64,000 bases of DNA, from assembly GCA_035499655.1 (NCBI GenBank), contig DATJYL010000112.1:2250-66249 (forward strand), read 5' to 3'. Positions within the stretch are counted from its first letter, which is position 1. Each line of letters begins with the position of its first letter. Made by a program: the position numbers and the translations under genes. Positions 10,571 to 33,063 of this stretch are shown here, piece by piece. This stretch comes from Pirellulales bacterium. GTDB lineage: Bacteria > Planctomycetota > Planctomycetia > Pirellulales > JADZDJ01. The notes beneath the pieces were generated by a model that did not search any database, was not told the DNA's origin, and saw nothing but the letters and a program-made list of their open reading frames with translations.

Positions 10571-11704
10571 ATGACGCCAAATCCAGTGACCTCGCCTGCC
10601 GATCTTAGTGCTTTCGTCGCCGCTGCCCGAGACCGGCTGAATGCCCACGTGTACGAAACCGTGCAGTGGCATTTTCATCCGTCAACGGGCTGCCCATTTT
10701 GGCTGGCGAAGGCGAGCGAGTTGAAATTCAATCCGCTGACGGAAGTGCGCTCCTTCGACGATTTGAAAAAGTTTCCGGAGTTCCAAGACGAATGGCTCCG
10801 CGGCGGTCCCGTGCGGCGGTGGGTGCCCAAAGCGCTGGCCGATAAGCCGATTTATGTGTTCGAAACCGGCGGGACAACCGGCATTCCTAAAAGCCGCATT
10901 GCCAGTGAAGATTTTCGCATCGATTACGAACTGTTCAGCCAAACGCTCCCCGAAAAATACTTTCCTCACGGCTCCAATTGGCTGATGTTGGGGCCATCCG
11001 GGCCGCGGCGGCTGCGGCTGGCCGTAGAGCATTTGGCGCAGCACCGCGGCGGCATTTGCTTTTGCATCGATTTGGATCCACGCTGGGTCATCAAGCTCAT
11101 CAAGCGCGGGTGGATGGAACACTTGGAAGCGTACAAGCAGCACTGCATCGAACAGGCGATTACCATTTTGCGGGCCGGTCACGACATCAAGTGCATGTTC
11201 ACCACGCCAAAATTGTTGGAGGCATTAGCGCTGGAATTGGAAAAGAGGGGCTCCAGTATTCCCCAGGAGGGCATCACCGGCATTTTCAGCGGCGGCACGG
11301 AGTTTACCCCGCAATGGACGCGGTTTGCCGTCGAAGAATTTCTGGGCGGGCCGCCGGAGCAAAGCGGCGTGTACATGACGCCCACCTACGGGAACACGCT
11401 GATGGGCCTGGCCGCCAGCAAGCCGGTCACCGCCGCCGACGGTTACAAAATTAGTTACTACGCGCCGCAACCCCGGGCCGTAGTGGAAGTGGTGGATTTC
11501 AAAAATTACAACAACGTGGTGGGCTACGGCCAAACCGGCCGGGCAAAATTGACCACGCTGACGAAAGAGTTTTTTGTGCCCGGCTTCATGGAGCGCGACG
11601 AAGGAGAACGTGAACCGCCGTACGAAAAATATCCCTGGGACGGCGTCAGCGGCGTGCGCCCGTTTCATGAACTGGCCGAAGCCACCACGGTGGGCGTGTA
11701 TTAG
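10571..11704 (+). CDS. LuxE/PaaK-like acyl-adenylate-forming enzyme (acyl-protein synthetase-like)
   Basis: AMP-binding loop FETGGTTGIPK, SGGTEF, TYGNTLMG; short 377-aa ANL-like fold lacking a typical C-terminal domain. Confidence 0.75.
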   Translation: MTPNPVTSPADLSAFVAAARDRLNAHVYETVQWHFHPSTGCPFWLAKASELKFNPLTEVRSFDDLKKFPEFQDEWLRGGPVRRWVPKALADKPIYVFETGGTTGIPKSRIASEDFRIDYELFSQTLPEKYFPHGSNWLMLGPSGPRRLRLAVEHLAQHRGGICFCIDLDPRWVIKLIKRGWMEHLEAYKQHCIEQAITILRAGHDIKCMFTTPKLLEALALELEKRGSSIPQEGITGIFSGGTEFTPQWTRFAVEEFLGGPPEQSGVYMTPTYGNTLMGLAASKPVTAADGYKISYYAPQPRAVVEVVDFKNYNNVVGYGQTGRAKLTTLTKEFFVPGFMERDEGEREPPYEKYPWDGVSGVRPFHELAEATTVGVY

Positions 11705-11735
11705 AGTGCGGAGTGGGTAGTGCGGAGTGCGGAGT
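11704..11735. repeat. Left heptamer arm (GAGTGCG type) of the four-helix-bundle cassette
   Basis: gagtgcg gagtggg tagtgcg gagtgcg gagt; begins at the last base of the upstream TAG. Confidence 0.9.
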
Positions 11736-11771
11736 TTTCAATCGGGATTAATTTCGAACAGGGCAAGGAAA

Positions 11772-12146
11772 ATGAGTTCCAACGATAAAGCATCGAAAGA
11801 GCAGTTGCGACCGCGGACTTATCAATTTGCTTTGCGAGTTATCCGCTTAGTCGATAGTTTACCGCGGTCACGCTCGGCAGATCACATCGGTGGGCAATTA
11901 CTACGTTGTGGCACTTCGGTGGGAGCAAATTACAGAGCTGCTTGCCGGGCCAGAAGTCCAGCTGAATTTCGAGCCAAATTAGGGATCGTTGAGGAAGAAT
12001 CCGACGAGGCGGCATTTTGGCTACATATTTTGGGAGATTCAAAGCTGATGAAGAAAGAACAGTTGATCGAGTTGTTGAAAGAATCCAATGAAATTACTGC
12101 AATGGTGGTTGCATCGATAAAAAGTTCTCGTCGATCCGATTCTTAA
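11772..12146 (+). CDS. Four-helix-bundle protein (23S rRNA IVS protein family PF05635/TIGR02436-like; Avd-like fold)
   Basis: RTYQFALRVIRLVDSLP...QLLRCGTSVGANYRAACRARSPAEFRAKLGIVEEESDEAAFWL...ESNEITAMV; AAGGA RBS before ATG 11772. Confidence 0.92.
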   Translation: MSSNDKASKEQLRPRTYQFALRVIRLVDSLPRSRSADHIGGQLLRCGTSVGANYRAACRARSPAEFRAKLGIVEEESDEAAFWLHILGDSKLMKKEQLIELLKESNEITAMVVASIKSSRRSDS

Positions 12147-12219
12147 ACTCCGCACTCCGCACTCTGCACTCCGCACTCCCCACTCCCCACTCCGCACTCC
12201 CCACTCCCCACTCCGCACT
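12147..12219. repeat. Right heptamer arm (ACTCCGC/ACTCCCC), 10.5 units, inverted relative to 11704-11735
   Basis: actccgc actccgc actctgc actccgc actcccc actcccc actccgc actcccc actcccc actccgc act; starts right after TAA 12146 and ends 1 bp before ATG 12221. Confidence 0.95.
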
Positions 12220-19178: not shown

Positions 19179-20111
19179 TTATGCGGACCGCGCCATCTCT
19201 ACCACCGCCTGCGCCACCAACGGAGAAGGCCCCAAATGCGACGCGATAATCCACTCCTTTTCCATTCCCTCTTCTTCTGCCTTCTGCTTTCTGCCTTCTT
19301 CTTTCCAATCACCGACCACCGACCACTGACTCACTGCCTCTCCAATCTGTCTCAGCACTTCCCCCGTGAATAGCAAATGTGGCTGCACCACAATCCGCCG
19401 ATATTCGCTCAAGGCCGCCCGCTTCAGCGCTTCCTTCAGTGTTGGCGTGGCCACGGCCGCAAAGCAAACTTCCACGCGGTCCACGGCGGTCTCTTGCGCC
19501 CGCAACGCCGCAAACCGCTGCATAGCGGCAATGGCGTCGGCATGCGAACTGCCCCGGCCGACCAATAAATGCAGAGTTTCCGCCGCCGGAACGTGCGGCC
19601 GGTCGTGTAATGCCTCGGCAAATCGCTGGGCCGATAGTTGGACGATCCGCTCGTGGCATTCCAGCGCGCCGAGAAATTCGACCTGCAACTCTTCCCGCGA
19701 ACCATCTTCTGCCTTCTGCCCTCTGCCTTCTGCCTTCTGCTTCGCCACCTTTCCTTTCTGGCCACAGACCACGGCTCGACTGAGTTCGCCGAAGTCCGAC
19801 CACTGACCACAAAGCCCCTCTTGCACCGCCGCCGGAATATCGTGCTTGGCATGCCCGGCCGCGAACAACAACAGCGGGACTACCGTCAACCGTTCCACCC
19901 CCTGCCGCAACAATCGCTCCAAGGCCTCCGGAATGCTCGGCTCGGCCAATTCCAAAAAGCAGGATTCCACCAAAAACTCGCCGGCCAACTCCGCCACCTG
20001 CCGCGCCACGGCCCAGAACTCCGCCAAACCGTTGGAATTTTGCGTCCCGTGCCCCACTAAAAGGAGGCCTTTTTTCGCCGTTTGTATGCTCGCCGGGAAT
20101 CCCATCGACAC
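19179..20111 (-). CDS. cbiX: Sirohydrochlorin chelatase, two-domain CbiX/SirB family, with two in-frame repeat insertions
   Basis: LLLVGHG, SCFLELAEPSI, VPLLLFAAGHAKHDIP, LLVGRGSS, VQPHLLFTG, ASHLGP. Confidence 0.85.
   Translation of the reverse strand: MSMGFPASIQTAKKGLLLVGHGTQNSNGLAEFWAVARQVAELAGEFLVESCFLELAEPSIPEALERLLRQGVERLTVVPLLLFAAGHAKHDIPAAVQEGLCGQWSDFGELSRAVVCGQKGKVAKQKAEGRGQKAEDGSREELQVEFLGALECHERIVQLSAQRFAEALHDRPHVPAAETLHLLVGRGSSHADAIAAMQRFAALRAQETAVDRVEVCFAAVATPTLKEALKRAALSEYRRIVVQPHLLFTGEVLRQIGEAVSQWSVVGDWKEEGRKQKAEEEGMEKEWIIASHLGPSPLVAQAVVEMARSA
19275..19330. repeat. Eight in-register heptamers inside cbiX (CAGTGGT-type plus GCAGAAG-type on the coding strand)
   Basis: ttctgcc ttctgct ttctgcc ttcttct ttccaat caccgac caccgac cactgac; encodes SQWSVVGDWKEEGRKQKAE. 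Confidence 0.85.
19707..19810. repeat. Second heptamer-rich insertion inside cbiX
   Basis: ttctgcc ttctgcc ctctgcc ttctgcc ttctgct ... ccacagaccac ... gaccactgaccac; encodes CGQWSDFGELSRAVVCGQKGKVAKQKAEGRGQKAE. Confidence 0.85.
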
Positions 20112-20194
20112 GATAATCCTGCTATAGTAGTGGTTTGTGTGATCCCGTCAGAAATCTCGAACTGAGAATTCCCGATCTGAGAATCTTAGCCTTG

Positions 20195-20221
20195 GTCATT
20201 CGTCATTAGACATTCGTCATT
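20195..20221. repeat. Single heptamer arm (TCATTCG type) upstream of the sigma54 activator gene
   Basis: gtcattcgtcattagacattcgtcatt, 26/27 identical to the reverse complement of 6148-6174. Confidence 0.85.
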
Positions 20222-20233: not shown

Positions 20234-22108
20234 GTGCCTGTCGCCACCGCCCAAAAATTCGCTTACTTCACGATGACCGTCGGCGGACGCGCCGGCGAGC
20301 ATTTTTTACTCGATCGGGCTGCTACCACGCGCTTGGGGCGCGGTGAAGATTGCCAAATTGTGCTGGGCGATCCGCTCTGTTCCCGCGTGCATTCCGAGGT
20401 GCTGCTCGATGGCGAAGGCCGCTGGATCATCCGCGATGCCGGCAGCCGCAACGGCACTTTCGTCAACGGCCAAAAAACGGACGAAGCCGTCCTGGCCGAA
20501 GGGCACAACATTCGAGTCGGCTCCAACGAGTTCGAATTTCACCTGGCCGATCAACCCCCCGCCGTCGTCGCCGAGCCGCAGGAAACGTACACCAACACCA
20601 TCGTCCGCGACACTCCCGTGCGCGACGCCGGGCAATCGCTCACCGATACCGGCGTGCTGGGCTTGGCCGCCGTGCGCGATTTCGAACAAGCCAAACAACT
20701 GCTCGTCCTCTATCAACTCAGCATCAAGCTGCTCGGTTGCCCGCAACCGGACGAAGTGGTGCGCATCGCCATTGAATTGCTCCAAGCCCAAACCAGAGCC
20801 TCCATCGTGGGTTTTTTGTGGGTCGACGATGAAGGCCGCCTGAAGCCTAAGTTTGTCATCCCGGAAGGTTCGCGCGAACCCGCCGATCTCAGCGATTCGC
20901 TCACCGAATTGGTTTGCCGCAAAGGCCATGCTGTGTGGATTGCCAAGCAGCGCGGCAGCCCCCAGTCCGACAGCCTGGGCCATTACGCCGACGCGCTGTG
21001 TGTTCCACTGGTCAGCGAACATCACACCTTTGGCGCCGTCCACGCTTATTTGGCCCAAGGCCGATTTCGGCAAAGCGATTTCGATTTCGCCATTTCCCTG
21101 GCCCATATTTTGGAAATCGCGCTGGTTCGCGCCCGCCAACAAAGCGCGCTGGAAACCGATTATCAACGGCTCGTGGAAAAATCGTCGATCTTCGGCCAAC
21201 TGATCGGCGATTCGACCGGCATGCGCGAATTGAAATCGAAAATCGGCCGGCTCGCCAAGGCCAGCGGCGGCGTGTTGATCCGCGGCGAAAGCGGCTCCGG
21301 AAAAGAACTCGTCGCCCGCGCTATTCATAAAGCCAGTCCCCGGGCCGACCGCCCCATGCTGTGCGTCAACTGCGCGGCCATTCCGCACGAGCTGATGGAA
21401 AGCCAACTGTTCGGCCACAAGGCCGGCGCTTTCACCAGCGCCGACCGCGACCACATCGGCTTTTTCCAGCAGGCCGACAGCGGCACGCTGTTTCTGGACG
21501 AAGTGGGCGAAATGACGCTGGAAGGCCAGGCCAAGCTGCTGCGAATTTTAGAAGGGCATCCGTTTTTGCCCGTCGGCAGCTCGCAGGAAGTCACCGCCGA
21601 CGTGCGGATTATCGCGGCCACCAATCAGGATTTGCAAACATACGTCCGCCAGAAAAAATTCCGTGAAGATTTGTACTACCGCCTCAGCGTATTCGAGCTG
21701 GTCGTCCCGCCGCTGCGCGACCGGGGCAGCGACATCAACCTGCTGGCCAATTATTTCCTCGATCATTTCCGCCGCCAGCATGGCCGCCCGCATCTGGAAA
21801 TTTCCGCCGAGGCCCGCCAAAAGCTGCTCGCCTACAACTGGCCGGGCAACGTCCGCCAGTTGCGCAACGTGATCGATAGCGCGGTCGTCATGGCCGGCGA
21901 CAACCGGATTGAAGCCAGCGACCTGGGCCTGCACGACATCAGCGGCGCGCCGGAAATGGAAACCCTGGCCCTGGATTATTGGGAACGCCGCCTCATCGGC
22001 GAAGCCCTGAAGCGCACGGGTGGCAACGTGCCCGAAGCCGCCAAACTGCTCGGCATCGGCCGCGCCACCCTCTACCGCAAAATCGAAGAGTACGGCATTA
22101 ACCGCTGA
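20234..22108 (+). CDS. Sigma54-dependent transcriptional activator (FHA - GAF - AAA+ - Fis HTH)
   Basis: FHA LGRG..CSRVHS..DAGSRNGTFVNG; GESGSGKE; GAFTSA (GAFTGA variant); LFLDEVG; REDLYYRL; YNWPGNVRQL; AAKLLGIGRATLYRKI. Confidence 0.95.
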   Translation: MPVATAQKFAYFTMTVGGRAGEHFLLDRAATTRLGRGEDCQIVLGDPLCSRVHSEVLLDGEGRWIIRDAGSRNGTFVNGQKTDEAVLAEGHNIRVGSNEFEFHLADQPPAVVAEPQETYTNTIVRDTPVRDAGQSLTDTGVLGLAAVRDFEQAKQLLVLYQLSIKLLGCPQPDEVVRIAIELLQAQTRASIVGFLWVDDEGRLKPKFVIPEGSREPADLSDSLTELVCRKGHAVWIAKQRGSPQSDSLGHYADALCVPLVSEHHTFGAVHAYLAQGRFRQSDFDFAISLAHILEIALVRARQQSALETDYQRLVEKSSIFGQLIGDSTGMRELKSKIGRLAKASGGVLIRGESGSGKELVARAIHKASPRADRPMLCVNCAAIPHELMESQLFGHKAGAFTSADRDHIGFFQQADSGTLFLDEVGEMTLEGQAKLLRILEGHPFLPVGSSQEVTADVRIIAATNQDLQTYVRQKKFREDLYYRLSVFELVVPPLRDRGSDINLLANYFLDHFRRQHGRPHLEISAEARQKLLAYNWPGNVRQLRNVIDSAVVMAGDNRIEASDLGLHDISGAPEMETLALDYWERRLIGEALKRTGGNVPEAAKLLGIGRATLYRKIEEYGINR

Positions 22109-22249
22109 GTGCCGCGTGTTGCCATTTTCACCTATAAAGCCGCGACCGTTGGTCGCGCTGCCCGCTCGCGACATGCTTGCCATTTCTAACCGCCGTGTAG
22201 TTTCGGACGAAGATTAACCGAGTGTAGCAATTCATCGAGGGTATTCGCC

Positions 22250-22466
22250 ATGTCCAATAACGCAAAGTACGAAATCATTCTTTACTGGAGTTCTGACGAT
22301 CAGGCTTCATCGCCGAAGTACCCGAGCTACTCGGCTGTGCCGCCGACGGCACTACCATCAAGCGGCGGTTGCCAATGCCGAAACGGTAATCCAGCAGTGG
22401 ATCGAAACAGCCCGCGAACTCGGCCGTCCTATCACGGAACCGCGCGGCCGACTGATTTACGCCTAG
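22250..22466 (+). pseudogene. hicB: HicB-family antitoxin pseudogene with two single-base deletions
   Basis: Restoring one base near 22307 and one near 22357 gives MSNNAKYEIILYWSSDDQA(F)IAEVPELLGCAADGTT(Y)QAAVANAETVIQQWIETARELGRPITEPRGRLIYA*. Confidence 0.8.
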
Positions 22467-22583
22467 CCAAACTCTTTGAAAGATGTGGTTCGCCATATGC
22501 GGAAAGAAGGCGCATATCGCAGGTACAGATTATCAAGGAAGTTTTGTGCCAAGTCATAATCCATTACTCAGCCTTGAAACTTC

Positions 22584-23723
22584 CTAGTTGAATAAACTTT
22601 TTGGAAATTGAATCTTGATAACGGCCAATTTTTTGTCTGGGAACGTATTTGGTTTTCGATCAACCGATTCCGCTATTGTGACTCGTTTGCTACTCTCTAA
22701 CGACTTCAAGGCGGCTTTGAATAAATAGCACGGCGTTTCGGTCAATACGAATTCCTTGATCTGTGAGCCATCCATTGTCTGCCCGGCTAATCGGGCTGTT
22801 AGTTCTTCTGCCAACCAAGTCTGATCGAATCGTTTTTCAAGCAGCATCAACTGACTTGGATCATCACGGTCTGAAAAACGAAATTCGCCAGTTTCATCGA
22901 CTTTCCACATGGCTTTCTTCATTTCTTCGATACCGCGGAGACTTTTTGTACAAAAGAGAAGCCAGTAAAGCGGGATGTTATTGCGATCATACATGAGAAA
23001 TGACACAACGAATTTTGCGCCCCCACGATACTTCAATGCCGTTTTATAAAGTGCGAGCAGTTTTTCGCGGCGTTGTTTCTCTGGCAAACCAACGCAGTCT
23101 CGCCACTCTTCACCGCCAAAGGCTCGTGTAAATGCATCTGCTTTCGTATCGTCCGTGATCCATCGGTTCATATCCTTGTAGTCGAGATATGTGAACACTT
23201 CGCAGACCGGAAAGGCTAAAATCCGTGCGATCAGAGCCATAGATACTTCGCCGTAGCCGAATTGATCTAAGAAGGCGAGTGCAGGGCCGAATTTGATATG
23301 TTTCGCTTCACAATCGGACAACAGTGTATTAAGAATGGCATCGCAGTCGCCACACTTTGGTTCAACCGCTCTAACATTCTTAGATGTTGCAATCTGCCCT
23401 TTAAATGGCGCGAGCATTTGCTTCAAATGCTCGTAGCGATCTTCGCGACGCTCAATGAAAAGCATCCGAATTGGATTAGGAAACGATACCGTGTGGTTCA
23501 AGGCTGCATTCAACGCAATCAATGGACTCCCTGGTTCGCCGCGATTGTACTCGCCCGGTCCGGCAAAACCGTCCACAAATAGAATTTCTCGTGCTTGATC
23601 ACCAATTTTGGCAGACTGTCGAGTTAGGATTGCCATCCACCTATGAAGATATTCATGGAGAATTGCGTGTTTTACAAGAGTGTGCGGACTAGCATCCCAA
23701 ACGGTCGGTAGCGTGTCGGTCAC
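22584..23723 (-). CDS. tcmP: Three-Cys-motif partner protein TcmP-like (SAM-methyltransferase-like motifs)
   Basis: [30 protein letters not shown]; GTG 23723 overlaps the DUF5131 stop (GTGA); low GC. Confidence 0.8.
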
Positions 23724-24424
23724 GGCATTTGATCCCAAGTCTGCCCATCAAGCAGGCGGCCGGTTCGTTTCTTGTTAGTCCCGCCCCACTGCTTGAAGAA
23801 AAAAGGAACATCTTTTGAAACACATTGATCTCTAAGCTGTCGCACCCATTCAACTTTCATAGGACGCGACCCCGGACCCGATTCACCTCCGACGATTACC
23901 CAGTGTATGCCTTTTAGTGGCAACCGTTTAATTGGCCCCAACAATGGTTCCACTGATAAGAATCGAATCGCGGCAGGAATCTCGCGCAATGATCTCACGC
24001 GCCACAAATAATCCTCATTTTCAACACTTGTTCCCATCCAGACATTCTTAGGCCACGGCAAATCTGCGCTCAATTCGGCAGCGCGATCCGGCCTTTTCGT
24101 CAAGACTTGGAATGTGTGTTGGCTTGCTTCTTCCATCACACCAAAACATTGCTGGATGTATTCTAGCGGTACATCAACATGAAAGAGATCACTCATCGAA
24201 TTGACGAAAATTACACGAGGCAATTTCCATCGCAACGGCACTTCTAACGCATCGGGTTGAAGTGTTAACTTGAATGCATTTCGGTATCTGTCTTGTCCCA
24301 TCGCCTTTAGACGATGAGCCATGCGTTCTGCATAACAAAACTTGCATCCCGGACTGATTTTCGTACATCCGGTGACAGGATTCCAAGTCGCTTCGGTCCA
24401 TTCGATAGTTGATGCTTGTGCCAT
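23720..24424 (-). CDS. DUF5131 family protein (phage Gp37/Gp68-like, radical-SAM-like three-Cys motif)
   Basis: [74 protein letters not shown]; GGAGG RBS before ATG 24424. Confidence 0.92.
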
Positions 24425-25017
24425 TTCAGCCCCCTCCAAGTTGGGCGGATTCGGCATACTGTACGCCAGTATATGTACATCGGTCGAAAAACGCAAGAGC
24501 ATCCACGAGCCGGGTTTCGGCCGGAAGTCCCGCCCGCGTATCAGATTCTAATCCCAATTTTAGGCCAACCCCGAAATTATCATTTCTCACTCCTGGCCCA
24601 AAAAAGCTTTGCAAATTAACGCGCTTGTTTGCTAGGGTGGTCCTATATAAATCAGCCCCGAAAGAAGCCCGGCGAAAGTAGGCAACCCAGGGCCTGGTGG
24701 TGGCCGGTCTATGCAGGCGGTAACGGACCGCCAGGCTGCAGCAGGCAATGTCGGCTCATTCCTCGTTAGCATTGATTGCTCTTTGGCAACTCGAAACTTT
24801 GCAAGCAGCAGCGAACGGATTGCCGCGCATGTGCCTAATTAGCCTTCCGCCGTTTGCCACCGTTTTCACTACCGTTTTCAACCGGTTATTGACCGTTTTT
24901 CACCGTTTTTACCGTTTTCTCCCACGAGCGCGCCTACTCCCTATTTCAATCCATCCCTCGTACAATACACCGGTACACACGCCCGTCAGTTGACCCGCTG
25001 GAAGGAGACAGCGCCCC

Positions 25018-25962
25018 ATGGCCAGAAAGGTGATTATCGACACCGATCCAGGCATTGACGACGCCGTGGCTTTGACCATGGCGCTGTTCGATCCGGAGTT
25101 GGAAGTGCTGGCCCTGACGGCGACGGGCGGGAACGTGTTTCCCAGTCAGGCCACGCGGAACGTGCAAACGATCGTGGAGCAGCTAGATCCGCCCCGCTGG
25201 CCGCGAGTCGGCGCCGCGCCGGAAGACAACCCGCTGCCCACCGACGGCCGCGTGCTCCACGGCCAAAACGGGCTGGGCAACATCGAGTTCCCCTTCGCCG
25301 GTCTGGCCAACATTCACCCGGCCGAAAAAGTCCTGTGCGACGAAGTACGGGCGGCTCCCGAGGAAATCACCATCATCTGTCTGGGGCCCCATACGAACAT
25401 CGCCCGAGCCATGCAGCGCGATCCGGAATTTTCCTCGCTTGTGGGACGGCTGGTCATCAGCGGCGGAACGATCAACACGCCGGGGCGGGTGAGCCCGGTG
25501 GCCGATTTCAACATTTATTGCGATCCGCTTTCAGCGCGCCACGTGCTGAAATCGCCCGCCACCAAAACGCTGGTGCCGCTGGACGTGAGCGGCGAGCTTG
25601 CGTTCACGTTCGATTTGCTCGATCAACTTCCCGCCGAAACGACCCGGGCCGGAAAATTTCTGCGGCAGATTTTGCCCTTTGCGTACCGTGCCCAGCGTCA
25701 AGTGTTGGGACAGGAACACGTTAACTTGCACGATGTGGCCGCCATTGTGGCCGTGACCAATCCGGAACTTTTCGAAACCGAGGCCCTGGCCGGCGACGTG
25801 GAAACGGAAGGCGAGCTGACCGGCGGCATGGTGGTGTTCGATCGCCGCCGGGCGAGCATCCGCGAGTGGCGCCAGAATATGGACGTCGCCATCAAGGCCG
25901 ATGTTGCCGCCATGCGTGATTGCGTGCTGCGCAGCCTGGAACGCGCCGGAAAAGCAAGCTGA
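25018..25962 (+). CDS. Inosine/uridine-preferring nucleoside hydrolase family protein
   Basis: IIDTDPGIDDAVAL, LGPHTNIA, ADFNIYCDP, LHDVAA. Confidence 0.92.
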   Translation: MARKVIIDTDPGIDDAVALTMALFDPELEVLALTATGGNVFPSQATRNVQTIVEQLDPPRWPRVGAAPEDNPLPTDGRVLHGQNGLGNIEFPFAGLANIHPAEKVLCDEVRAAPEEITIICLGPHTNIARAMQRDPEFSSLVGRLVISGGTINTPGRVSPVADFNIYCDPLSARHVLKSPATKTLVPLDVSGELAFTFDLLDQLPAETTRAGKFLRQILPFAYRAQRQVLGQEHVNLHDVAAIVAVTNPELFETEALAGDVETEGELTGGMVVFDRRRASIREWRQNMDVAIKADVAAMRDCVLRSLERAGKAS

Positions 25963-25963
25963 G

Positions 25964-27139
25964 CTATTCGGGATAATCGGCCCGATCGCCGACTTTGACC
26001 GTCAGGTTTACGGTTTGCCCGCCGCGGAAAACGGTAATCGGCACTTCTTTGCCGACTTCGATCAGACTGACCAGGAACATCAGATGGCTGTCGTCTTCGA
26101 CCGGCACGCCGTTGAACTCGACGATTACGTCGTCGCGCTGTAGCTTCGCCGCCTCGGCAGGCGATTTGGCCACCACGCCCGAAAGCCGGGCGCCCTCCGG
26201 CCGCGGCAGGCCAATTTTGATGAACTCGGCGGCCGCGAATTTGTCTTTGTCTTTATCTTTGTCGTAAAACCGCACGCCCAAGTAGGCCCGCGTCACCGTG
26301 CCGTGTTCGATTAACTGTTTGGCCACAATCATGGCCATGTCGATGGGAATGGTAAAACCCACGCCGGCGCTGCTGTTGGTGCTGGAGGCGATGGCCGTGT
26401 TCATGCCGATCACTTCCCCCTTCATATTCACCAGCGGGCCGCCGCTGTTGCCGGGATTGATCGGAGCATCGGTCTGAAAGAAATCTTGGAACTTGAGCAC
26501 GTTGTTGGAGCCTTCGTCCAAATCTAAATCGCGCCGGCCTTTGGCGCTGATGATGCCGAACGTGACGGAGTGACTTAACCCAAACGGACTGCCCACGGCC
26601 AGCACAAAATCGCCCACGTCCATGTCGTCGCTGTTGCCGATGCGTGCCGGCACCAGCCCTGTGCCTTGAATGGTCATCACCGCGATGTCGGTGGGCTGGT
26701 CGGCCCAAATGCGGGTGGGATGCAACTCGCGTCCGTCGGCCAAGCGAATGGTGATGCTGTCACTGCTGGAATCGCGAATAACGTGCCGGTTGGTGAGCAC
26801 GTACAATTTTTCGCCAAATTGCACGATGGTGCCGGAGCCGGCGTCTTCCTCGCGGCGGGCGTAATGATCTTTGTGGACCGAATCGATGTGCACCACCGAC
26901 GGCTTAACCAGGTGCGAAACTTTGCGCAGCACGTTGCCGGCCTGCTGCAAGCGCTCCGATTCGACCGCCAATTCGTCGAATTGTTTAGCCCGCTCTTCGG
27001 CCGTGGGTTGCTTCTCGTCCCATTGCTGCGCAACCACCGGCCGGTTCATCGCCAGCCACGTCAACAAGGCGCCCAAGTAAAAGGCGCCCAGCAAAGCACT
27101 CCGCACACCGCCAGCTAGATACCAGTTCGTTCGGGCCAT
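25964..27139 (-). CDS. DegP/HtrA-like trypsin serine protease with one PDZ domain and an N-terminal membrane anchor
   Basis: GSGTIV, LTNRHV, TDIAV, QTDAPINPGNSGGPL; start trimmed to ATG 27139 because the longer ORF overlaps the dksA-like gene. Confidence 0.92.
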   Translation of the reverse strand: MARTNWYLAGGVRSALLGAFYLGALLTWLAMNRPVVAQQWDEKQPTAEERAKQFDELAVESERLQQAGNVLRKVSHLVKPSVVHIDSVHKDHYARREEDAGSGTIVQFGEKLYVLTNRHVIRDSSSDSITIRLADGRELHPTRIWADQPTDIAVMTIQGTGLVPARIGNSDDMDVGDFVLAVGSPFGLSHSVTFGIISAKGRRDLDLDEGSNNVLKFQDFFQTDAPINPGNSGGPLVNMKGEVIGMNTAIASSTNSSAGVGFTIPIDMAMIVAKQLIEHGTVTRAYLGVRFYDKDKDKDKFAAAEFIKIGLPRPEGARLSGVVAKSPAEAAKLQRDDVIVEFNGVPVEDDSHLMFLVSLIEVGKEVPITVFRGGQTVNLTVKVGDRADYPE

Positions 27140-27452
27140 ACAAAAACTCCGAAGCAAAGTTCCCCTCACATATTCAGTATGACAAATGCCAAGCCGCAGG
27201 TAAAACGACGCCGCCCGAAAAAAACGGCGCCTATCGGAATACTTGCGTAAGACATGCACGTTGCGCAGCAAAATGGGAGGGCGGGGCATCGGCCAAACCG
27301 AAGATAGGCTTCGGTCGGCTGTCGCTCCGCCCTCCCTTTTGAATTTCGGAAATACTGATTTCGAAATCGCGGCATTTCCGGCCGGATGGACCGTTTGCCA
27401 TAGGAAAACGCCGCAAGTCAACCGGGCATCGCCCCGACGGACCAGATGCCGT

Positions 27453-27902
27453 TTACGAAACGTCCAGCTCGATATCGTCCAGCGTCGCTTCCGATTCGCC
27501 GCCGCCGGAATCGGAAAGCCGGCCCCAATCTTGATCATGGCCGCCTGCGGAGCCGTACTTCTCGACTTCTCGCGCGCATTGGATGCAGTAGGTGGCATAC
27601 GGCAATGCGTTCAGCCGGGCCATGGGAATTTTGCAGCCGCAGCCCTCGCACACGCCGTAGTGACCGGTGCGCATCCGTTCCAGAGCATTTTCGACATTTG
27701 CCAGTTCGCGGCTTTCCACTTCCGCCAACTGGGAGCTGATTTCGTCTTGGGCGGAATCCAGCGCCGCATCGACCAAATCGCCGGCCGTTTGGGCCCGTAG
27801 CTCTTTGAGTAAACTCAAGTCGCCGGCCAGCGCTTTGCGCAGGGCGTCCCGCCGCTTGATAAGAATCTGACGCATACTCACCAGTGCATCTTTGCGTGCC
27901 AT
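27453..27902 (-). CDS. DksA/TraR family C4 zinc-finger protein
   Basis: Coiled coil with DLVDAA (DxxDxA), YGVCEGCGCKIPMARLNALPYATYCIQC. Confidence 0.92.
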   Translation of the reverse strand: MARKDALVSMRQILIKRRDALRKALAGDLSLLKELRAQTAGDLVDAALDSAQDEISSQLAEVESRELANVENALERMRTGHYGVCEGCGCKIPMARLNALPYATYCIQCAREVEKYGSAGGHDQDWGRLSDSGGGESEATLDDIELDVS

Positions 27903-28750
27903 GTGGGCAATCCTCATCCCGACAGCCCAGCTGAAGCAGAAAGTTGTTTAGACGGCCACAGTGGGACAACTGGGTTGTGCCGTCGCTAAAAGAGTGACGA
28001 CAACCTGTTATGCATCCCGAACCTTAAAACTGCGAGCGTCCAACCCCCTTCGACAACTTGCTAAACCATCAGATTTCTGAGACCTCGTTTCTCTGTTTTT
28101 GTTCCACGATGCCGTCTAACCCCGGCCGCGGGAGCCTACGGTTAGCAAACCAAATATAGTACGTGAAACCGGCGAAAAGGATCGCCGGACACATCCATTT
28201 TTCTAAAAAACCTGTTTTGCAACCTCATACAACCGGCTGGGATATGGTGTGCGGCTAAATAATAGGCGGCCAGTTTATTCCGCCAAGTGTTGTTCTGGAG
28301 CGATTTCCAGATGCCGAGCACCCATCATATTTCCTCGTCTTGGACACTTAAGTGACGAAATTCACAATCTAATTGTTTCAAAACACAAGCTGAACCGGCC
28401 CGTATGCCGCGATGCTCAAACTTGCCCTGGGCGAACATTGATTTCGGCCATCGTAGTCTGATGAAGTTTTCCGCTCGTAACGATTACGATGACCGATGGC
28501 AGTCGCTATGGGATAATCGGCAAAATCGGCCTGGAGGTGCAGCGATTTCCGTCGAAAAAACGCCCAGCCCTCTGATTCCCGCCCTGTTGCTAGCGGCAAT
28601 AGGCCTGTGAAACCGTAATGGGTTTGGGATTTCATTGCCTGCCAGCGCTTTGACCTCGCCTGCCGAATAACCTACATCTCCAATGAGATTCGTGAGTTAC
28701 GGCTTGCGAATCGTAAGTCATCCCTGGCTGGCCGATTTGCACTTCCTTTT

Positions 28751-31700
28751 TTGGTCTCCACGTCCATGCCCGCTACTGCTTCCGCCGCACCGGTCAGCGC
28801 ATTACTGGGTACTCCTCCGGCGGCGCTGGCGCTGCGCGTTTGCGGGACTGAGCGCGATGGCGAAGTCGTCCGCCTGCTTTCGTCCAAAGTGACTATCGGC
28901 TCATCGCGGCAATGCACGCTGCGTGTGAAAGCACCCGGCATCGCGCCGCTGCACTGCGTCATTTTGCGGGGGGCTAAGCAAACCATTGTTCGCCGTTGGA
29001 CGCTCGATACTCGCTTGAACGAAGGCGCGTTCGACGAATCGCCGCTCCGGCTGCACGATCGTTTAACCGTGGGGCCGATTCAATTTGAAGTTGTCGACGA
29101 CGAAGGTGAGCGTTCCCAAGAGGCGAAGCGCTCCGCGGAAAACGAACAGCTTTTGGGATTGTTGTCGGAATTGCAAACTGATCTGCAATCGCTCAAAGAT
29201 CAACGACAACAGTGGCAGGCCGCTCATGAACAAGAGCAACAACTGCTGGCCCGGCAACAACAACAGGTCGACGAGCAGCGACAACAGGTCGATGAACAAA
29301 GTCGGCAGTCCGTTGCGGAGCAGCAATCGTGGGCGCTGGAACGCGAACGTCTGAACGAGGAGCGAACGAGGCTTGCCCAGCAAGCGGCCGAGTTCGAAAG
29401 CGAACGCGCGGCGATAGAAACCCAGCAGCAGGCTGTGCAGGAACAACGCCTGCAAGAAGAAGCAGCCTGCCGGCAACTGCAAATCACGCTTCACGAGCGC
29501 GAAGCGGCAACCTGCCAAAGCGAAGCGCTGCTAGCTGCGCAACATGCCAAAATACTGGAACATGAAACGCTGCTGAAGGAACGAGAATCGCACCTTCAAC
29601 AAAGGGCGTGTGAGCTGGATGCCCAGGCCGCTGCGTCAGAACTTCGGGCCGCAACTTTGGAAACCCAGGCCAGAGCGTTGGAGGCTCGTACCGCGGAGCT
29701 GGATGCTCAAGCGATTGCCTTTCAAGCTCAATCTTCGGCGCTGGAAGCTCAGGCCGGCGCGCTGGCAGCGCAAACGGACGATCTAACCCGTCGAGAAGCT
29801 GAGCTCCAACAAGCGGCGGCGTTGGCGCAGTCTCCTCTATCGGCCACTTCAGATGTCGATTTGGAGGCTCAGCAAGCCGCTCTGACAGCACTTCGGGAAC
29901 AATTGAATGCCGCGCAGGCCCAGTTCGATGCCGATCGCCAGGCATGGCTTTCGCAACAACAGGGTTGGCAAGCGGAGCGCTCCACTTGGGAAGCACAACA
30001 GCATGCCCGCGAAGCCGAAAAAGCCACTTGGGATGAAGAAAAAGAATCACGGAAAAACCGAAGCGCTGAGTGGGACAGCCAGCATGCCCGCCATGTCAAC
30101 GAGTTGCAAAGTCAGCAGGCAGAGCTGAAACAATTGCAATTGACGGTGGCGCAGGAGCAGACATCTCTTCATCAACAACAGCAGGAATTTAAACTCCTGC
30201 AGAAGCGCTGCGCCGAGCACGAACAGTCGCTTGATCAGCAACAGCAAACGTTGACGCAAAAACTACGCACGCTGGAAGAACAAAGCCAAGCGCTGGACGA
30301 GGAAAGAACTTCGCTGGAACAGCAGCGTCAGGCATTGTGTCAGCGGCAGCAAATCCTCGACCAGCGGCAACAGACTATGGATCAACGTCAACGGGCGTTG
30401 GACGAACAGAAACAAACGGTGGACCAGCGTCAGGTGGCGCTCGATGAGCACCAACTGATGCTCGACGAACGGCGCGACGCGCTGGATCAACGGCAACAAA
30501 CTTTGGAACAAAGGCAGCAGGCCGGCGAGCAACGCCAACGTACACTCGTCGAGCAACAACAAACGTTGGAACAACGTCAAAAGCTGCTGGACGACGAGCA
30601 AAAGGCACTGGACGAGCTTAATGCAACGCTGGAGGAACAACGAAAAGCGTTCGACCAGCAACAGCAGGCCTTCGCGGTCGAGCGCACCGACCTGGAACAG
30701 CAACGGCAATCGCTGGCTGAACAAGCTGCCGAACTGCAGCAACAGCGCAATGCCTTTGACAAGCGGCGGCAATCGCTCGAGTCCGATCGTCGCGCGGGAA
30801 ATGCACAACGGGAAGAAATCGCGTCGGAATTACGAGAACGGGAAGAGCAAGTGCGGCAACTCTCCGCCGAATTGAAACAACTTCAGCAGGATTCTGCTGC
30901 TCGCGCCAACCAACGCGAACCGGATCACACCCAGCAAGAAACGGCATTGACTGAGCGTGCTGCGGCCCTGGAAAGCCAGGTCGCCAATTTGGAAGCCGAG
31001 AACGACCAACTGCGGCAGGAGTGCCGGCAATCACAACAAGCGCTTCACAAGTTGGAAGACGACATGGCGGCCCTGCGCGATCAAAAACCAGTTTCAGCGA
31101 TGGAACGAGAAGAGGAAGCCCCGTCCAGCGAGACCGTTACCCACGACACGAAACCTGCGGAACCGACCGCGTCGCAAGACGATGGCCAGCCAACCTCTGC
31201 TTCCGATGAAGATGCCTTGTTTGCCCGGCTGCGGGCGATGTCGCTTTTGAAGGAAGACCACGTCGAAGAAGACCACGTCGAAGAGGAACAGAACATGCCG
31301 CCGGCTACGCCAGAACCTGAACTTCAACCAGAGGCAACGGAGGCAACTCCTAGCGCTCCGGCCATCCACGAACCCGAGCACGAGCATGACGAATCGGTCG
31401 ACGATTACATGGTCAAGCTGCTGCAACGAATGCGTGGCCTGACGGACGATGCATCCACGCCTGCGGCTCGCCGTCCTGCGACGGACGAAAGCACCAAGCC
31501 TGCATCGTCATCGTCGTTATCGTCAACGGTCTTTCCCTCCGTCACGTCTCGACCGGAAACCACCACACCGCCCACAAAAGCAGGCAAATTCGAGCCGCGC
31601 TCGGCGGCGCCGGAAAAAAGTCGCGATTTGGCGGCGATGCGCGAAATCGCGAATCTTAGTGCCCGCGCCGCCATCGCCACGCACCATCATCGTCGCGGCA

Positions 31701-32020
31701 CGGACCGGGCCTGGACGATTTTGTGGGCGGGAACGTTCAGCTTGGTCGTCGGAATCATCTTGCTGATCGAAGTGCCTGATTTCCGTTCACCCCTGTTTTA
31801 TCTGGGATTAACCGGAGTGGGGGCGGCGATTTGTTGCTTCACGAGATCACATCTGCTCGTGCGAAAACTGCTTTCGACGCAACGGCACAAAGAGCATCAA
31901 TTCGCGGCCATTGCGCACGAGAAAGACCTCGCGGAATCGCACGAGAAATCTGCGCCCGCATTGACTCCGGCCGAGCCGTCGGAAGAATCGACTTCTGTGA
32001 CGCCTGAAAGCACGTCGTAA
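28751..32020 (+). CDS. FHA-like domain / very long Q-E-rich coiled coil / C-terminal two-TM protein
   Basis: N-terminal VTIGSSRQCTL..GIAPLHCVI..LNEGAF; about 650 aa of heptad-rich sequence; low-complexity linker; MAAMREIANLSARAAI then two hydrophobic helices; start uncertain. Confidence 0.8.
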   Translation: MVSTSMPATASAAPVSALLGTPPAALALRVCGTERDGEVVRLLSSKVTIGSSRQCTLRVKAPGIAPLHCVILRGAKQTIVRRWTLDTRLNEGAFDESPLRLHDRLTVGPIQFEVVDDEGERSQEAKRSAENEQLLGLLSELQTDLQSLKDQRQQWQAAHEQEQQLLARQQQQVDEQRQQVDEQSRQSVAEQQSWALERERLNEERTRLAQQAAEFESERAAIETQQQAVQEQRLQEEAACRQLQITLHEREAATCQSEALLAAQHAKILEHETLLKERESHLQQRACELDAQAAASELRAATLETQARALEARTAELDAQAIAFQAQSSALEAQAGALAAQTDDLTRREAELQQAAALAQSPLSATSDVDLEAQQAALTALREQLNAAQAQFDADRQAWLSQQQGWQAERSTWEAQQHAREAEKATWDEEKESRKNRSAEWDSQHARHVNELQSQQAELKQLQLTVAQEQTSLHQQQQEFKLLQKRCAEHEQSLDQQQQTLTQKLRTLEEQSQALDEERTSLEQQRQALCQRQQILDQRQQTMDQRQRALDEQKQTVDQRQVALDEHQLMLDERRDALDQRQQTLEQRQQAGEQRQRTLVEQQQTLEQRQKLLDDEQKALDELNATLEEQRKAFDQQQQAFAVERTDLEQQRQSLAEQAAELQQQRNAFDKRRQSLESDRRAGNAQREEIASELREREEQVRQLSAELKQLQQDSAARANQREPDHTQQETALTERAAALESQVANLEAENDQLRQECRQSQQALHKLEDDMAALRDQKPVSAMEREEEAPSSETVTHDTKPAEPTASQDDGQPTSASDEDALFARLRAMSLLKEDHVEEDHVEEEQNMPPATPEPELQPEATEATPSAPAIHEPEHEHDESVDDYMVKLLQRMRGLTDDASTPAARRPATDESTKPASSSSLSSTVFPSVTSRPETTTPPTKAGKFEPRSAAPEKSRDLAAMREIANLSARAAIATHHHRRGTDRAWTILWAGTFSLVVGIILLIEVPDFRSPLFYLGLTGVGAAICCFTRSHLLVRKLLSTQRHKEHQFAAIAHEKDLAESHEKSAPALTPAEPSEESTSVTPESTS

Positions 32021-32043
32021 CCGCCAACGGCTGAAAAGTACGG

Positions 32044-33063
32044 CTAGCATTTCCCGCGGGCCGCCAGCACGTCGTCGAAATCGCGCAAATGGTAGCCAAT
32101 GCCCGCCACGTCCAGCACGCGGCACAGACTGCGCGTGGCCACGCCCAAGCCGTCGGGCCCGCTAAAGCCGCCAAATTGTCCGCCCCCTTTCAAATGGGGC
32201 TCTAAATCCATAAACACGCCGGGAATGCCCCGCCGCTTCAGCTTTTTTTCCAAGGCCGGAATTTCTTTGCGAAAATCGCGGAGAATGACGCCGTAAGAAC
32301 CGTCGCCCAGTTCGGCGGGCACAAAGTGCTTGAGGCCGTCTTCATCGACGTGCCGCTTGCGCTTAGCGGGCCGGGGCGAACGATAATCTTTGACGTGCAT
32401 CCAGCCGATGCCCGGCTTCATCGCCAAATACTGCTGGAAAACCTCGGCGGGCGTATAACCCTGCGAGACAATGTTGCCGGCGTCAAAAATCAACAGCAGG
32501 GCCGGATGATTCACCTGGCGATAAATTTCCGCCATCAGTTGTCCGCTTTGGCCCACCAAATTCGCTTCGATTTCCAAGCCGTAAGTCAAGTCGGAACGAT
32601 GGCATGCTTCGGCAATTTGCCCCAGTTGTTCCACCGTTTGCGGCAGGAACTTGGCCGGATCGGCCCCGCACGGCGGATAAAACGAAAATCCGCGGATCAG
32701 CTTCGTCTCGAACGCATGGGCCAATTCGCAGGCCCGTTTCACGTCGCCGGCCAGATATTTTTTGAACGGCACGTACTTGTTCTTGGTGCCGTCTTCCTCG
32801 TCGACCAATTTCACTTTGCCCAACGGCGAGCCGATGGAAGTGACATTCAGTCCGTATTCATCCTCCAGGTGGCGCAGCTTGGTGATTTCCGCCCGCGAAA
32901 GCTGCATTACGTTCTTAATGCCATTACCGACGTCGATAAATCGAATGCTGTAGTATTGCAACCCCAAGGCCCCCAGCGCCGCAAACTGTTGAACCGCCGT
33001 CTTTTGGTTCGCTGATTCATCGGCAAAGGCGCTAAGAATGACCTCCGGCGGTTCGTGGGGCAT
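32044..33063 (-). CDS. Sugar phosphate isomerase/epimerase family (xylose isomerase-like TIM barrel)
   Basis: LSAFADE, SIGSPLGK, IRGFSFY, GLEIEANL, IFDAGN, MHVKD, MDLEPHL. Confidence 0.85.
   Translation of the reverse strand: MPHEPPEVILSAFADESANQKTAVQQFAALGALGLQYYSIRFIDVGNGIKNVMQLSRAEITKLRHLEDEYGLNVTSIGSPLGKVKLVDEEDGTKNKYVPFKKYLAGDVKRACELAHAFETKLIRGFSFYPPCGADPAKFLPQTVEQLGQIAEACHRSDLTYGLEIEANLVGQSGQLMAEIYRQVNHPALLLIFDAGNIVSQGYTPAEVFQQYLAMKPGIGWMHVKDYRSPRPAKRKRHVDEDGLKHFVPAELGDGSYGVILRDFRKEIPALEKKLKRRGIPGVFMDLEPHLKGGGQFGGFSGPDGLGVATRSLCRVLDVAGIGYHLRDFDDVLAARGKC

What the first reader, a model, noticed from the sequence alone, without database searches (positions are those of the whole stretch)
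19275..19810. CbiX chelatase carries two independent heptamer-derived in-frame insertions at equivalent positions of its two domains
Seen: insert 1 (about 19700-19810, CGQWSDFGELSRAVVCGQKGKVAKQKAEGRGQKAEDG) and insert 2 (19275-19330, SQWSVVGDWKEEGRKQKAEEEG). Both run CAGTGGT-type units into GCAGAAG-type units; insert 2 keeps an unbroken 7-bp register for 8 units while the sequence drifts. Each lies after the His-containing motif region (GHAKHDIP / QPHLLFTG) of its CbiX half and before the next strand. Three heptamers equal 21 nt or 7 aa, so expansion by three units preserves frame. Inference: repeated targeting of, or tolerance at, the same structural loop.
Basis: partly seen in the sequence, partly recalled or inferred. 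Interest (0 to 1): 0.68.

Follow-up and report, generated by a model that had tools for sequence, protein, structure and literature searches.

The report
Repeat DNA translated in two chelatase loops
The only sirohydrochlorin chelatase gene of an uncultured Pirellulales bacterium carries, in the matching surface loop of each of its two halves, in-frame stretches of the genome's own 7-base repeat DNA; relatives hold other repeat families in the same two loops, so mobile repeat DNA can settle and turn over inside an essential-looking enzyme without breaking it.

Summary
The gene (window 19179-20105/20111, minus strand) is an intact two-domain CbiX/SirB chelatase. It has two in-frame inserts, +36 aa and +15 aa against a phylum-wide baseline of 20 and 21 loop residues. 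Both lie in the alpha3-to-beta4 connection of their half. The 7-base periodicity of the gene peaks only there.

- Insert 1 is composite: CAGTGGT units enclose a 24-nt dispersed element (11 genome copies, all nested in such arrays). A degenerate stretch and five GCAGAAG units follow.
- The net lengths (108 and 45 nt) are not multiples of 21, although one exact 21-nt step separates the gene from a close relative.
- The two inserts are separate but not unrelated: they hold the same two flavours in the same order.

In 143 orthologues outside the insert clade only alpha-to-beta loops and the linker vary in length. One Pirellulales clade fills these two loops with at least seven heptamer flavours and an unrelated 25-nt hairpin repeat, which sits in both loops of a same-genus relative. 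The inserts evolve faster than constrained codon positions.

Best reading: structural tolerance filters a genome-wide repeat flux, and existing arrays attract more. This is a new variant of the Rickettsia RPE-like habit.

The parts
19179..20111 (-). CDS of a two-domain CbiX/SirB-type sirohydrochlorin chelatase. It is 310 aa from GTG 20111, or 308 aa from ATG 20105, which is the form held in the protein database. The stop codon is included.
   Evidence: ORF list. Pfam PF01903 6e-41 with two stretches. P0001 is 308 aa and 100% identical. The fold matches B. subtilis SirB 5zt7, TM 0.88 normalised to the target. It is the only PF01903 gene in the 97%-complete genome.
19608..20072 (-). N-terminal CbiX half (residues 14-168). 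It holds the invariant H21, E54 and H87.
   Evidence: Secondary structure of the model. Invariant columns.
19185..19577 (-). C-terminal CbiX half (residues 179-309). It holds the invariant H245.
   Evidence: The halves align at 33% identity, E 1e-11.
19701..19811 (-). Insert 1 (residues about 101-137, CGQWSDFGELSRAVVCGQKGKVAKQKAEGRGQKAEDG). It adds a net 36 aa to the alpha3-beta4 loop of the N-terminal half.
   Evidence: Loop length 56 against a mode of 20. pLDDT 50-59 over residues 105-142. The HMMER alignment to SirB stops at residue 97.
19797..19810 (-). Insert 1, module a: two CAGTGGT-type units (GTGGTCA GTGGTCG).
   Evidence: Sequence. This is the left flank of the dispersed module matched at 88-98% elsewhere in the genome.
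19773..19796 (-). Insert 1, module b: a 24-nt small dispersed element, GACTTCGGCGAACTCAGTCGAGCC (DFGELSRA), nested inside the CAGTGGT array.
   Evidence: 11 copies in the genome, 10-11 of them between CAGTGGT-type units. It has weak hairpin potential without covariation support.
19758..19772 (-). Insert 1, module c: CAGTGGT-type units resuming after the core (GTGGTCT GTGGCCA G).
19741..19757 (-). Insert 1, module d: a degenerate purine-rich transition (AAAGGAAAGGTGGCGAA).
   Evidence: Sequence. It aligns with the matching transition of insert 2.
19706..19740 (-). Insert 1, module e: five GCAGAAG units (KQKAEGRGQKAE).
   Evidence: TRF period 7, 5.0 copies, 92% matches. The flavour family has 29-50 arrays in the genome. 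The close relative L161 has the same flavour at the same place.
19266..19331 (-). Insert 2 (residues 261-282, SQWSVVGDWKEEGRKQKAEEEG). Nine to ten units stay in one 7-nt register. It adds a net 15 aa to the alpha3'-beta4' loop of the C-terminal half.
   Evidence: Loop length 36 against a mode of 21. Lag-7 identity up to 0.74. pLDDT 61-77. TRF rows 19274-19305 and 19310-19330.
19310..19330 (-). Insert 2, 5' module: three CAGTGGT-type units (GTCAGTG GTCGGTG GTCGGTG). This is about the 21 nt that L161 lacks.
   Evidence: TRF. Pairwise alignment with L161 shows a net 21-nt gap here.
19268..19309 (-). Insert 2, 3' module: transition plus GCAGAAG-type units (ATTGGAA AGAAGAA GGCAGAA AGCAGAA GGCAGAA GAAGAGG).
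   Evidence: It is shared in flavour and position with L161 loop 2.

Best explanation
The gene is a working two-domain class II chelatase, most likely the siroheme ferrochelatase SirB of this organism. Its two pseudo-symmetric alpha3-to-beta4 loops have been colonised by the genome's own repeat DNA and are translated as floppy, hydrophilic loop extensions.

The source is a genome-wide pool of about 500 tandem 7-nt arrays. Every PF05635 four-helix-bundle gene in the genome is bracketed by such arrays, 7 of 8 by an inverted same-flavour pair, and many more arrays stand as gene-less hairpins or single arms.

The inferred process has two layers.

At the DNA level, single arms and small nested elements enter or are copied into existing arrays by slippage and ectopic template switching. 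Once a loop holds an array it keeps gaining, losing and swapping units.

At the protein level, selection keeps only changes that meet four conditions:
- they are multiples of 3 nt, for example 21 nt or 24 nt;
- they lack stop codons;
- they lack an inverted partner;
- they lie in connections on the face of the sheet opposite the active site.

The alpha3-beta4 loop is the most permissive connection inside each half, so both halves end up inserted. The inserted peptides themselves probably have no function.
For: Shown, host gene:
- Intact ORF with all invariant residues.
- Confident core model, mean pLDDT 88.9, with low-confidence inserts.
- SirB is the best structural match.
- It is the sole CbiX gene.
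- A siroheme-type reductase is present, and only two TP_methylase genes exist, so there is no de novo B12 route.
- Synteny with the sigma-54 activator and the Prc protease is conserved in inserted orthologues.

Shown, repeat pool:
- Period 7 is the commonest tandem period: 508 arrays, 14.2 kb.
- 32% of arrays lie in long open frames against 71% of random sites.
- All 8 PF05635 loci are bracketed by heptamer arrays, 7 by inverted same-flavour pairs, one of them GCAGAAG. Only 1.9% of random 800-nt windows hold two or more arrays.

Shown, copying from elsewhere:
- The 24-nt core and its flanks match 10 other loci at 88-100% identity.

Shown, filter:
- Beta-to-alpha loops never vary in length in 143 outgroup orthologues, while the alpha3-beta4 loops of both halves do.
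- Arrays inside long ORFs are almost always solo: 3/51 paired against 87/272 outside, Fisher p 6e-5.

Shown, turnover:
- Different flavours and a second repeat family occupy the same loops in relatives.
- There are at least 6 state changes for loop 2.
- One exact 21-nt step.
- Insert divergence is 0.18-0.20 in the pair L162/L168, where core codon positions 1 and 2 diverge by 0.06-0.08 and position 3 by 0.24, with many indels.

Inferred:
- The opposite-face geometry. It follows from H21, E54 and H87 sitting just after strands 1-3 in the model, whereas the inserts precede strand 4.
- The slippage and template-switch mechanism.
- That the GCAGAAG parts are older than the CAGTGGT parts.
Against: - Translation of the inserts is therefore inferred from frame conservation only.
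- All sequences are metagenome assemblies.
- The interdomain linker is as length-tolerant as the two loops in outgroups (15 rows), yet it is expanded in only one row of the heptamer clade. Tolerance alone does not explain the choice of site.
- Both inserts carry the same rare flavour order, which hints at a DNA-level bias or copying between the loops.
- No PF05635 cassette with exactly CAGTGGT arms was found.
- In two pairs the inserts diverge less than third codon positions (0.25-0.30 against 0.42-0.44). Some constraint, or alignment bias, remains.
Confidence: 0.7

Rival explanations
1. DNA-level homing. The arrays, or a machine that writes them, recognise a sequence or an existing array. The two loops are hit because their DNA offers the same seed, not because the protein tolerates inserts there.
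For: - Both inserts begin with the near-identical string GTCAGTGGTCGGTGGTC(T/G)GTG after a GAG-G..GTG context, and both end in GCAGAAG units.
- The CAGTGGT-then-GCAGAAG order on one strand is called by TRF only in this gene.
- The 24-nt core is always nested in CAGTGGT arrays.
- Neighbouring arrays of different flavours are common.
- The equally tolerant linker is rarely used.
Against: - An unrelated hairpin repeat uses the same two loops.
- Outgroup orthologues lengthen these loops with non-periodic sequence.
- No target-site duplication or terminal inverted repeat flanks the inserts.
- Uninserted orthologues show no common motif at the two sites beyond Ala-Val codons.
Confidence: 0.15
2. Adaptive loops. 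The charged, Gly-rich KAEGRRQ/QWSVV peptides were selected for a function such as partner binding, solubility or regulation of the chelatase.
For: - The inserts are retained in frame in about 19 orthologues.
- In two pairs the inserts diverge less than third codon positions.
Against: - The peptide sequence, flavour and length differ completely among the three closest relatives: Q, L161 and L178.
- L166 and L081 have lost insert 1 altogether, with an 18-residue loop.
- Model confidence is low and there is no stable structure.
- The same peptides occur in many unrelated ORFs.
Confidence: 0.07
3. Contingency switch. Slippage of the arrays by 7 nt turns the only siroheme chelatase gene off and on in the population.
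For: - Five near-perfect GCAGAAG units lie inside the ORF.
- A one-unit change shifts the frame.
- Heptamer tracts are known phase-variation devices in Haemophilus (PMC8262952, listed).
Against: - The tracts are short and imperfect, 92% and 89% matches.
- The gene is a single-copy housekeeping enzyme.
- All 19 inserted orthologues are in frame.
- No polymorphism data could be obtained.
Confidence: 0.05
4. Artefact or pseudogene. The inserts are assembly errors in repeat DNA, or the gene is decaying.
For: - The source is a short-read metagenome assembly of 244 contigs.
- Repeats are hard to assemble.
Against: - Independent assemblies from many samples show inserts in the same loops.
- The ORF is intact, catalytic residues are invariant, the core model is confident, and the genome holds no other CbiX gene.
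Confidence: 0.03

Closest known systems
Rickettsia palindromic elements (RPE; Ogata et al. 2000, as summarised in the MITE review PMC10969869)
   Same: Dispersed repeat families sit in frame inside unrelated metabolic genes. They are read through as extra peptide at places compatible with the fold.
   Different: RPEs are about 150-bp palindromic elements, each encoding one conserved peptide. Here the inserted DNA is tandem 7-nt arrays of changing flavour and copy number plus a nested 24-nt element. It is not palindromic in this gene, it occurs in free-living Planctomycetota, and it turns over quickly between close relatives.
Heptanucleotide long simple-sequence repeats of prokaryotes: cyanobacterial STRR and TAACTGA repeats of Beggiatoaceae and Cyanobacteria (PMC4679880)
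   Same: Tandem 7-nt units are the most abundant tandem-repeat class. They are mostly intergenic, come in several flavours, and their origin is unexplained.
   Different: Those repeats are described as intergenic, often just upstream of start codons. Here they are translated inside a conserved enzyme, twice, and in this genome they form the arms of PF05635 gene cassettes.
Small dispersed repeats nested in cyanobacterial repeats (Elhai et al. 2008, Genome Res 18:1484; reference seen in PMC3116915; content from my own recollection, the paper is not held)
   Same: A roughly 24-nt element with many copies is found nested within heptamer arrays.
   Different: The lineage differs. This copy is 24 nt, so it keeps the reading frame of an enzyme gene. 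Its hairpin character is weak.
ORF-bearing intervening sequences of 23S rRNA genes (Pfam PF05635, 23S_rRNA_IVP)
   Same: A small PF05635 gene is enclosed by inverted repeats.
   Different: The arms here are heptamer arrays, and the cassettes lie between protein genes, not in rRNA. The chelatase holds only single arms without the gene.
Bacillus subtilis SirB (PDB 5zt7, 6jv6)
   Same: The two-domain class II chelatase fold: TM 0.88 normalised to the target, rmsd 2.2 A. The GHG and LE motifs align with the invariant H21 and E54.
   Different: Sequence identity is 23%. SirB has short alpha3-beta4 loops. The metal specificity of the window's enzyme is untested.

Membership tests
CbiX/SirB class II sirohydrochlorin chelatase (host gene) | Two CbiX (PF01903) domains | tested here: met
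   Pfam 6.2e-41 with two stretches. Two domain matches in one open frame.
CbiX/SirB class II sirohydrochlorin chelatase (host gene) | Class II chelatase fold | tested here: met
   Model pLDDT 88.9. Foldseek match to SirB 5zt7, E 6e-15, TM 0.88 normalised to the target.
CbiX/SirB class II sirohydrochlorin chelatase (host gene) | Conserved metal and substrate ligands. These would be His and Glu after strands 1 and 2 of the N-terminal half, His10 and Glu43 in SirB by my recollection. | tested here: met
   H21, E54, H87 and H245 are invariant in 91 sequences. The motifs align with SirB.
CbiX/SirB class II sirohydrochlorin chelatase (host gene) | Chelatase activity and metal choice (Fe or Co) | not testable with these tools
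   Context favours siroheme: one NIR_SIR reductase and only two TP_methylase genes.
Tandem heptanucleotide repeats (LSSR/STRR type) | Head-to-tail 7-nt units | tested here: met
   TRF rows. Lag-7 peaks of 0.71-0.74.
Tandem heptanucleotide repeats (LSSR/STRR type) | Genome-wide excess of period 7, and preference for non-coding DNA | tested here: met
   508 arrays, the top period. 32% lie in long frames against 71% of random sites.
RPE/MITE-like in-frame mobile element | Dispersed copies of the same sequence | tested here: met
   The core module has 11 copies. There are tens of GCAGAAG and CAGTGGT arrays.
RPE/MITE-like in-frame mobile element | Palindromic or terminal inverted repeats | tested here: not met
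   No inverted arms flank or fill the inserts. RNA folding z-scores are -1.4, 0.1 and -1.75.
RPE/MITE-like in-frame mobile element | Target-site duplication | tested here: not met
   No flanking direct repeat.
RPE/MITE-like in-frame mobile element | In-frame insertion at a structurally permissive site of a housekeeping gene | tested here: met
Small dispersed repeat nested in heptamer arrays (SDR-like) | A short element of about 24 nt, in many copies, nested in arrays | tested here: met
   11 copies, 10-11 of them inside CAGTGGT arrays.
Small dispersed repeat nested in heptamer arrays (SDR-like) | Conserved hairpin | tested here: inconclusive
   The consensus fold is -14.9 kcal/mol, but the covariation term is only -0.7 and most pairs are invariant.
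Arm of a heptamer-armed PF05635 cassette | A cassette with arms of the same flavour exists in the genome | tested here: inconclusive
   GCAGAAG: yes, at C131:22698-23108, where the gene is in two pieces. CAGTGGT: none; the nearest is GAGTGGT at C123.
Simple-sequence contingency locus | A long perfect tract and length polymorphism within the population | tested here: not met
   The tracts have 3-5 units and are 89-92% perfect.

The most novel reading that the evidence does not exclude
Heptamer arrays are self-extending landing pads. Once a single arm of a PF05635 cassette sits in a permissive loop, it recruits further arms and 24-nt elements from the roughly 500 arrays of the genome by homology-driven copy-and-paste. 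The matching loops of both chelatase halves, and loops of other core enzymes, then become hypervariable modules. On this reading, 7-nt slippage in these arrays would also make the only siroheme chelatase gene a stochastic on/off switch in a free-living planctomycete.
Probability: 0.12. Interest if true: 0.8.

Novelty: new variant of a known kind. Interest (0 to 1): 0.55.

Why it matters
Selfish repeat DNA read through inside essential genes is a textbook oddity of Rickettsia. Here the same habit appears in free-living Planctomycetota with a different kind of DNA: tandem 7-base arrays, a nested 24-nt element and a small hairpin repeat.

The internal duplication of the chelatase acts as a natural control. 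The same loop of each half is used, and the loops that face the active site are never used. This separates what the protein tolerates from what the DNA process prefers.

The case also links translated arrays to the long-unexplained heptamer repeats of bacteria, and in this genome to PF05635 four-helix-bundle cassettes.

It offers a simple experimental system: one enzyme, two loops, and natural variants with and without inserts. That system could measure how much junk a fold can carry and how fast such loops turn over.

Tried and rejected
- RNA structure in the inserts: not better than shuffles.
- Pseudogene or paralogue backup: rejected, because the ORF is intact and single-copy.
- The idea that insert lengths are multiples of 21 nt: rejected (108 and 45 nt). 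Only the Q-L161 difference in loop 2 is exactly 21 nt.
- Strand bias of translated arrays towards the purine-rich strand: not found, 17 against 18.
- The metagenome scan gave few close relatives, so DNA of close relatives had to be fetched one by one.
- Literature searches for heptamer repeats in Planctomycetes found no report.
- The Elhai 2008 paper is not held.
- My first strict period scan undercounted arrays and was replaced by TRF.

Full report
**1. The object**

Window 19179-20111 (minus strand) is a 310-aa ORF from GTG. The database form is 308 aa from ATG 20105.

- Pfam finds CbiX twice (E 6.2e-41). NCBIfam finds only sub-threshold chelatase models.
- The nearest solved relative by sequence and by fold is Bacillus subtilis SirB. 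phmmer gives E 2e-18, and its alignments break at residues 97 and 260. Foldseek gives 5zt7, E 6e-15, TM 0.88 normalised to the target, rmsd 2.2 A.
- The AlphaFold model is confident: mean pLDDT 88.9, pTM 0.86.
- It is the only PF01903 gene in a 97%-complete genome.
- The genome has one siroheme-type NIR_SIR reductase and only two TP_methylase genes. The likely role is therefore siroheme ferrochelatase rather than a B12 enzyme. This is an inference.
- The gene order (sigma-54 FHA-GAF activator, chelatase, Prc protease) is kept in orthologues.

**2.

- The quoted peptides and units are at the stated coordinates.
- The lag-7 identity along the gene has two peaks only, at the two inserts (0.71 and 0.74). 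Only 2.2e-4 of random genome windows reach 0.70.
- I compared 162 planctomycete orthologues taken from genome and metagenome contigs and from exact look-ups. The P93-L150 segment has 20 residues in 116 rows, and the G250-W287 segment has 21 residues in 132 rows. The window has 56 and 36.
- The two halves align (33% identity, E 1e-11) with the inserts facing each other.
- In the model both inserts fill the connection between helix alpha3 and strand beta4, at residues 105-142 and 267-285. pLDDT there is about 50-59 and 61-77, while the rest is above 95.

**3. What the inserts are made of**

Insert 2 is nine to ten units in one register, drifting from GTCAGTG/GTCGGTG to GGCAGAA.

Insert 1 is layered:
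- two CAGTGGT-type units;
- a 24-nt core, GACTTCGGCGAACTCAGTCGAGCC;
- two more CAGTGGT-type units;
- a degenerate purine-rich stretch;
- five GCAGAAG units.

The core with its flanks recurs at 10 other loci at 88-100% identity, nearly always nested in CAGTGGT arrays. It is a small dispersed element, and its 24 nt keep the reading frame. Its hairpin potential is weak and has no covariation support.

Neither insert folds better than shuffled sequence. Neither has inverted ends or a target duplication.

**4. The genomic background**

- Period 7 is the commonest tandem period in the genome: 508 arrays, 14.2 kb. The flavours include AATGACC, GCTAATT, GCAGAAG, AATGACG, CAGTGGT and CAGGGTT.
- Arrays avoid coding DNA (32% in long open frames against 71% of random sites), but dozens are embedded in long frames.
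- Intergenic arrays typically come as inverted same-flavour pairs.
- Following a lead from earlier notes, I tested the PF05635 link. The ORF at window 11727-12146 is PF05635. All 8 PF05635 loci of the genome are bracketed by heptamer arrays, and 7 of them by an inverted pair of one flavour each, one of them GCAGAAG. Only 1.9% of random 800-nt windows hold two or more arrays.
- Arrays inside long ORFs are nearly always solo: 3/51 paired against 87/272 outside, p 6e-5.

The chelatase inserts therefore look like single arms of this element class.

**5. The orthologues**

A well-supported clade (97/98) of 20 rows holds every loop with a 7-nt signal.

- The flavours differ from lineage to lineage: GTGGTCA, GCGGTAG, GGGTTCA, CGGAAGG, CAGTGGG, AATGGGG and TCCGCAC.
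- A second, unrelated repeat, ATAAAGCCGCGACCGNTGGTCGCGC, has about 73 copies in the window's genome. It sits in frame (KAATGGRA) in loop 1 of L161, L165, L163, L005 and L169. It sits in both loops of L165 and of the same-genus genome G002.
- On a 37-row tree built without the loop columns, the expanded or baseline state changes at least 3 times for loop 1 and at least 6 times for loop 2.
- The three closest genes (the window, L161 and L178; starred trio) have entirely different loop contents.
- L161 shares GCAGAAG-type arrays in both loops. It lacks the CAGTGGT modules and is exactly 21 nt (three units) shorter in loop 2.
- The most economical history is older GCAGAAG arrays in both loops and younger CAGTGGT modules added at their 5' edges in the window's lineage. 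This is an inference.
- After removal of the core the two inserts of the window align well (GTCAGTGGTCGGTGGTC(T/G)GTG is shared). Their flavour order on one strand is called nowhere else in the genome. They are separate events but not unrelated ones.

**6. Tolerance or targeting**

- In the 143 rows outside the clade, the six beta-to-alpha connections, which carry H21, E54, H87 and H245, never change length.
- The variable places are the alpha3-beta4 loops of both halves (10 rows each beyond +3 residues, without 7-nt signal), the interdomain linker (15 rows) and a few other alpha-to-beta loops.
- This is the pattern expected if inserts survive only on the face of the sheet opposite the active site.
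- The use of the same loops by two unrelated repeat families points the same way.
- A DNA-level bias is not excluded. The tolerant linker is hardly used in the clade, arrays of different flavour often adjoin, and the core element always sits in CAGTGGT arrays.

**7. Constraint on the peptides**

- In the pair L162/L168 the inserts differ at 0.18-0.20 of sites. Core codon positions 1 and 2 differ at 0.06-0.08 and position 3 at 0.24.
- In the pairs L167/L163 and Q/L161 the inserts differ at 0.25-0.30 against 0.42-0.44 at position 3.
- Indels are abundant, for example 48 of 129 and 70 of 183 alignment columns.
- L166 and L081 have lost insert 1.

The peptides are at most weakly constrained.

**8. 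Comparison with the known**

- The closest analogue in effect is the Rickettsia palindromic element (PMC10969869).
- The inserted DNA belongs to the heptanucleotide repeat class known from many prokaryotes and described as mainly intergenic (PMC4679880).
- The nested core recalls the small dispersed repeats of cyanobacteria (Elhai 2008; recollection only, the paper is not held).
- I found no report of heptamer repeats in Planctomycetes in the held library.
- Earlier notes of this scan describe similar in-frame arrays in other enzymes and phyla. I treated them as leads and tested only the PF05635 link and the nesting here.

**9. Limits**

- All sequences are metagenome assemblies.
- There are no expression or population data.
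- Low model confidence does not prove disorder.
- The relative age of the modules and the slippage and template-switch mechanism are inferred, not shown.

**Verdict**

The case is a new variant of a known kind and is of moderate interest as a clean, internally controlled example.

Noticed in passing
genome contig C42:19008-20729 (minus strand), outside the window: The CobA-HemD fusion gene (uroporphyrinogen-III methyltransferase/synthase, 574-aa frame) works in the same siroheme pathway. It also carries an in-frame GCAGAAG array of about 10 units (…GRHKKPEGRGQKAEGEQNAKGRRQKAEKCSEIH…) inside its TP_methylase domain.
   Followed up: partly
whole genome; e.g. window 22137 region (C112:24386), just after the stop of the sigma-54 activator gene: A second dispersed repeat, (C/T)ATAAAGCCGCGACCGNTGGTCGCGC, forms a 6-8 bp hairpin and has about 73 copies. 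6 of 73 copies have a heptamer array directly upstream, against 0.4% of random windows. It is translated in frame as KAATGGRA in the chelatase loops of relatives.
   Followed up: partly
window 11704-12219 and seven other loci (C48 twice, C9, C123, C214, C127, C131): Every PF05635 (23S rRNA IVS protein) gene of the genome is bracketed by heptamer arrays. Seven of eight have an inverted pair of one flavour each, with the purine-rich arm first whatever the gene orientation. The GCAGAAG-armed copy at C131:22698-23108 has its gene in two pieces.
   Followed up: yes
window 20150-20221: The spacer between the chelatase and the divergent sigma-54 activator gene holds a GTCATTC/AATGACG array (about 4 units) and a 15-nt repeat, AGAATTCCCGAACTG, x2.3. 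Both lie just upstream of the chelatase start.
   Followed up: no
L167:1501-2448 and L164:1501-2589 (orthologue loop 1): In two orthologues loop 1 holds a purine-rich arm followed by a pyrimidine-rich arm (GGAATCG … CATTCCA x3; GGAAGGC … TCCGCAC x5). This is closer to a whole foldback element, and it is read as ISFPIPHSTFSI and HTPQSALRTPHSDLGLP.
   Followed up: no
genome contig C26, about 21080-32689 (minus strand): One very long open frame (over 2,500 codons) contains at least eight separate heptamer arrays of several flavours: GCAGAAG, CAGTGGT, GAGTGGT and CGCAGGG.
   Followed up: no
L177 (G007:C3:866629-867452): A family-level relative has its chelatase frame shifted inside loop 2. The C-terminal part matches in another frame, which means a frameshift or a sequencing error within the repeat-derived loop.
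   Followed up: no
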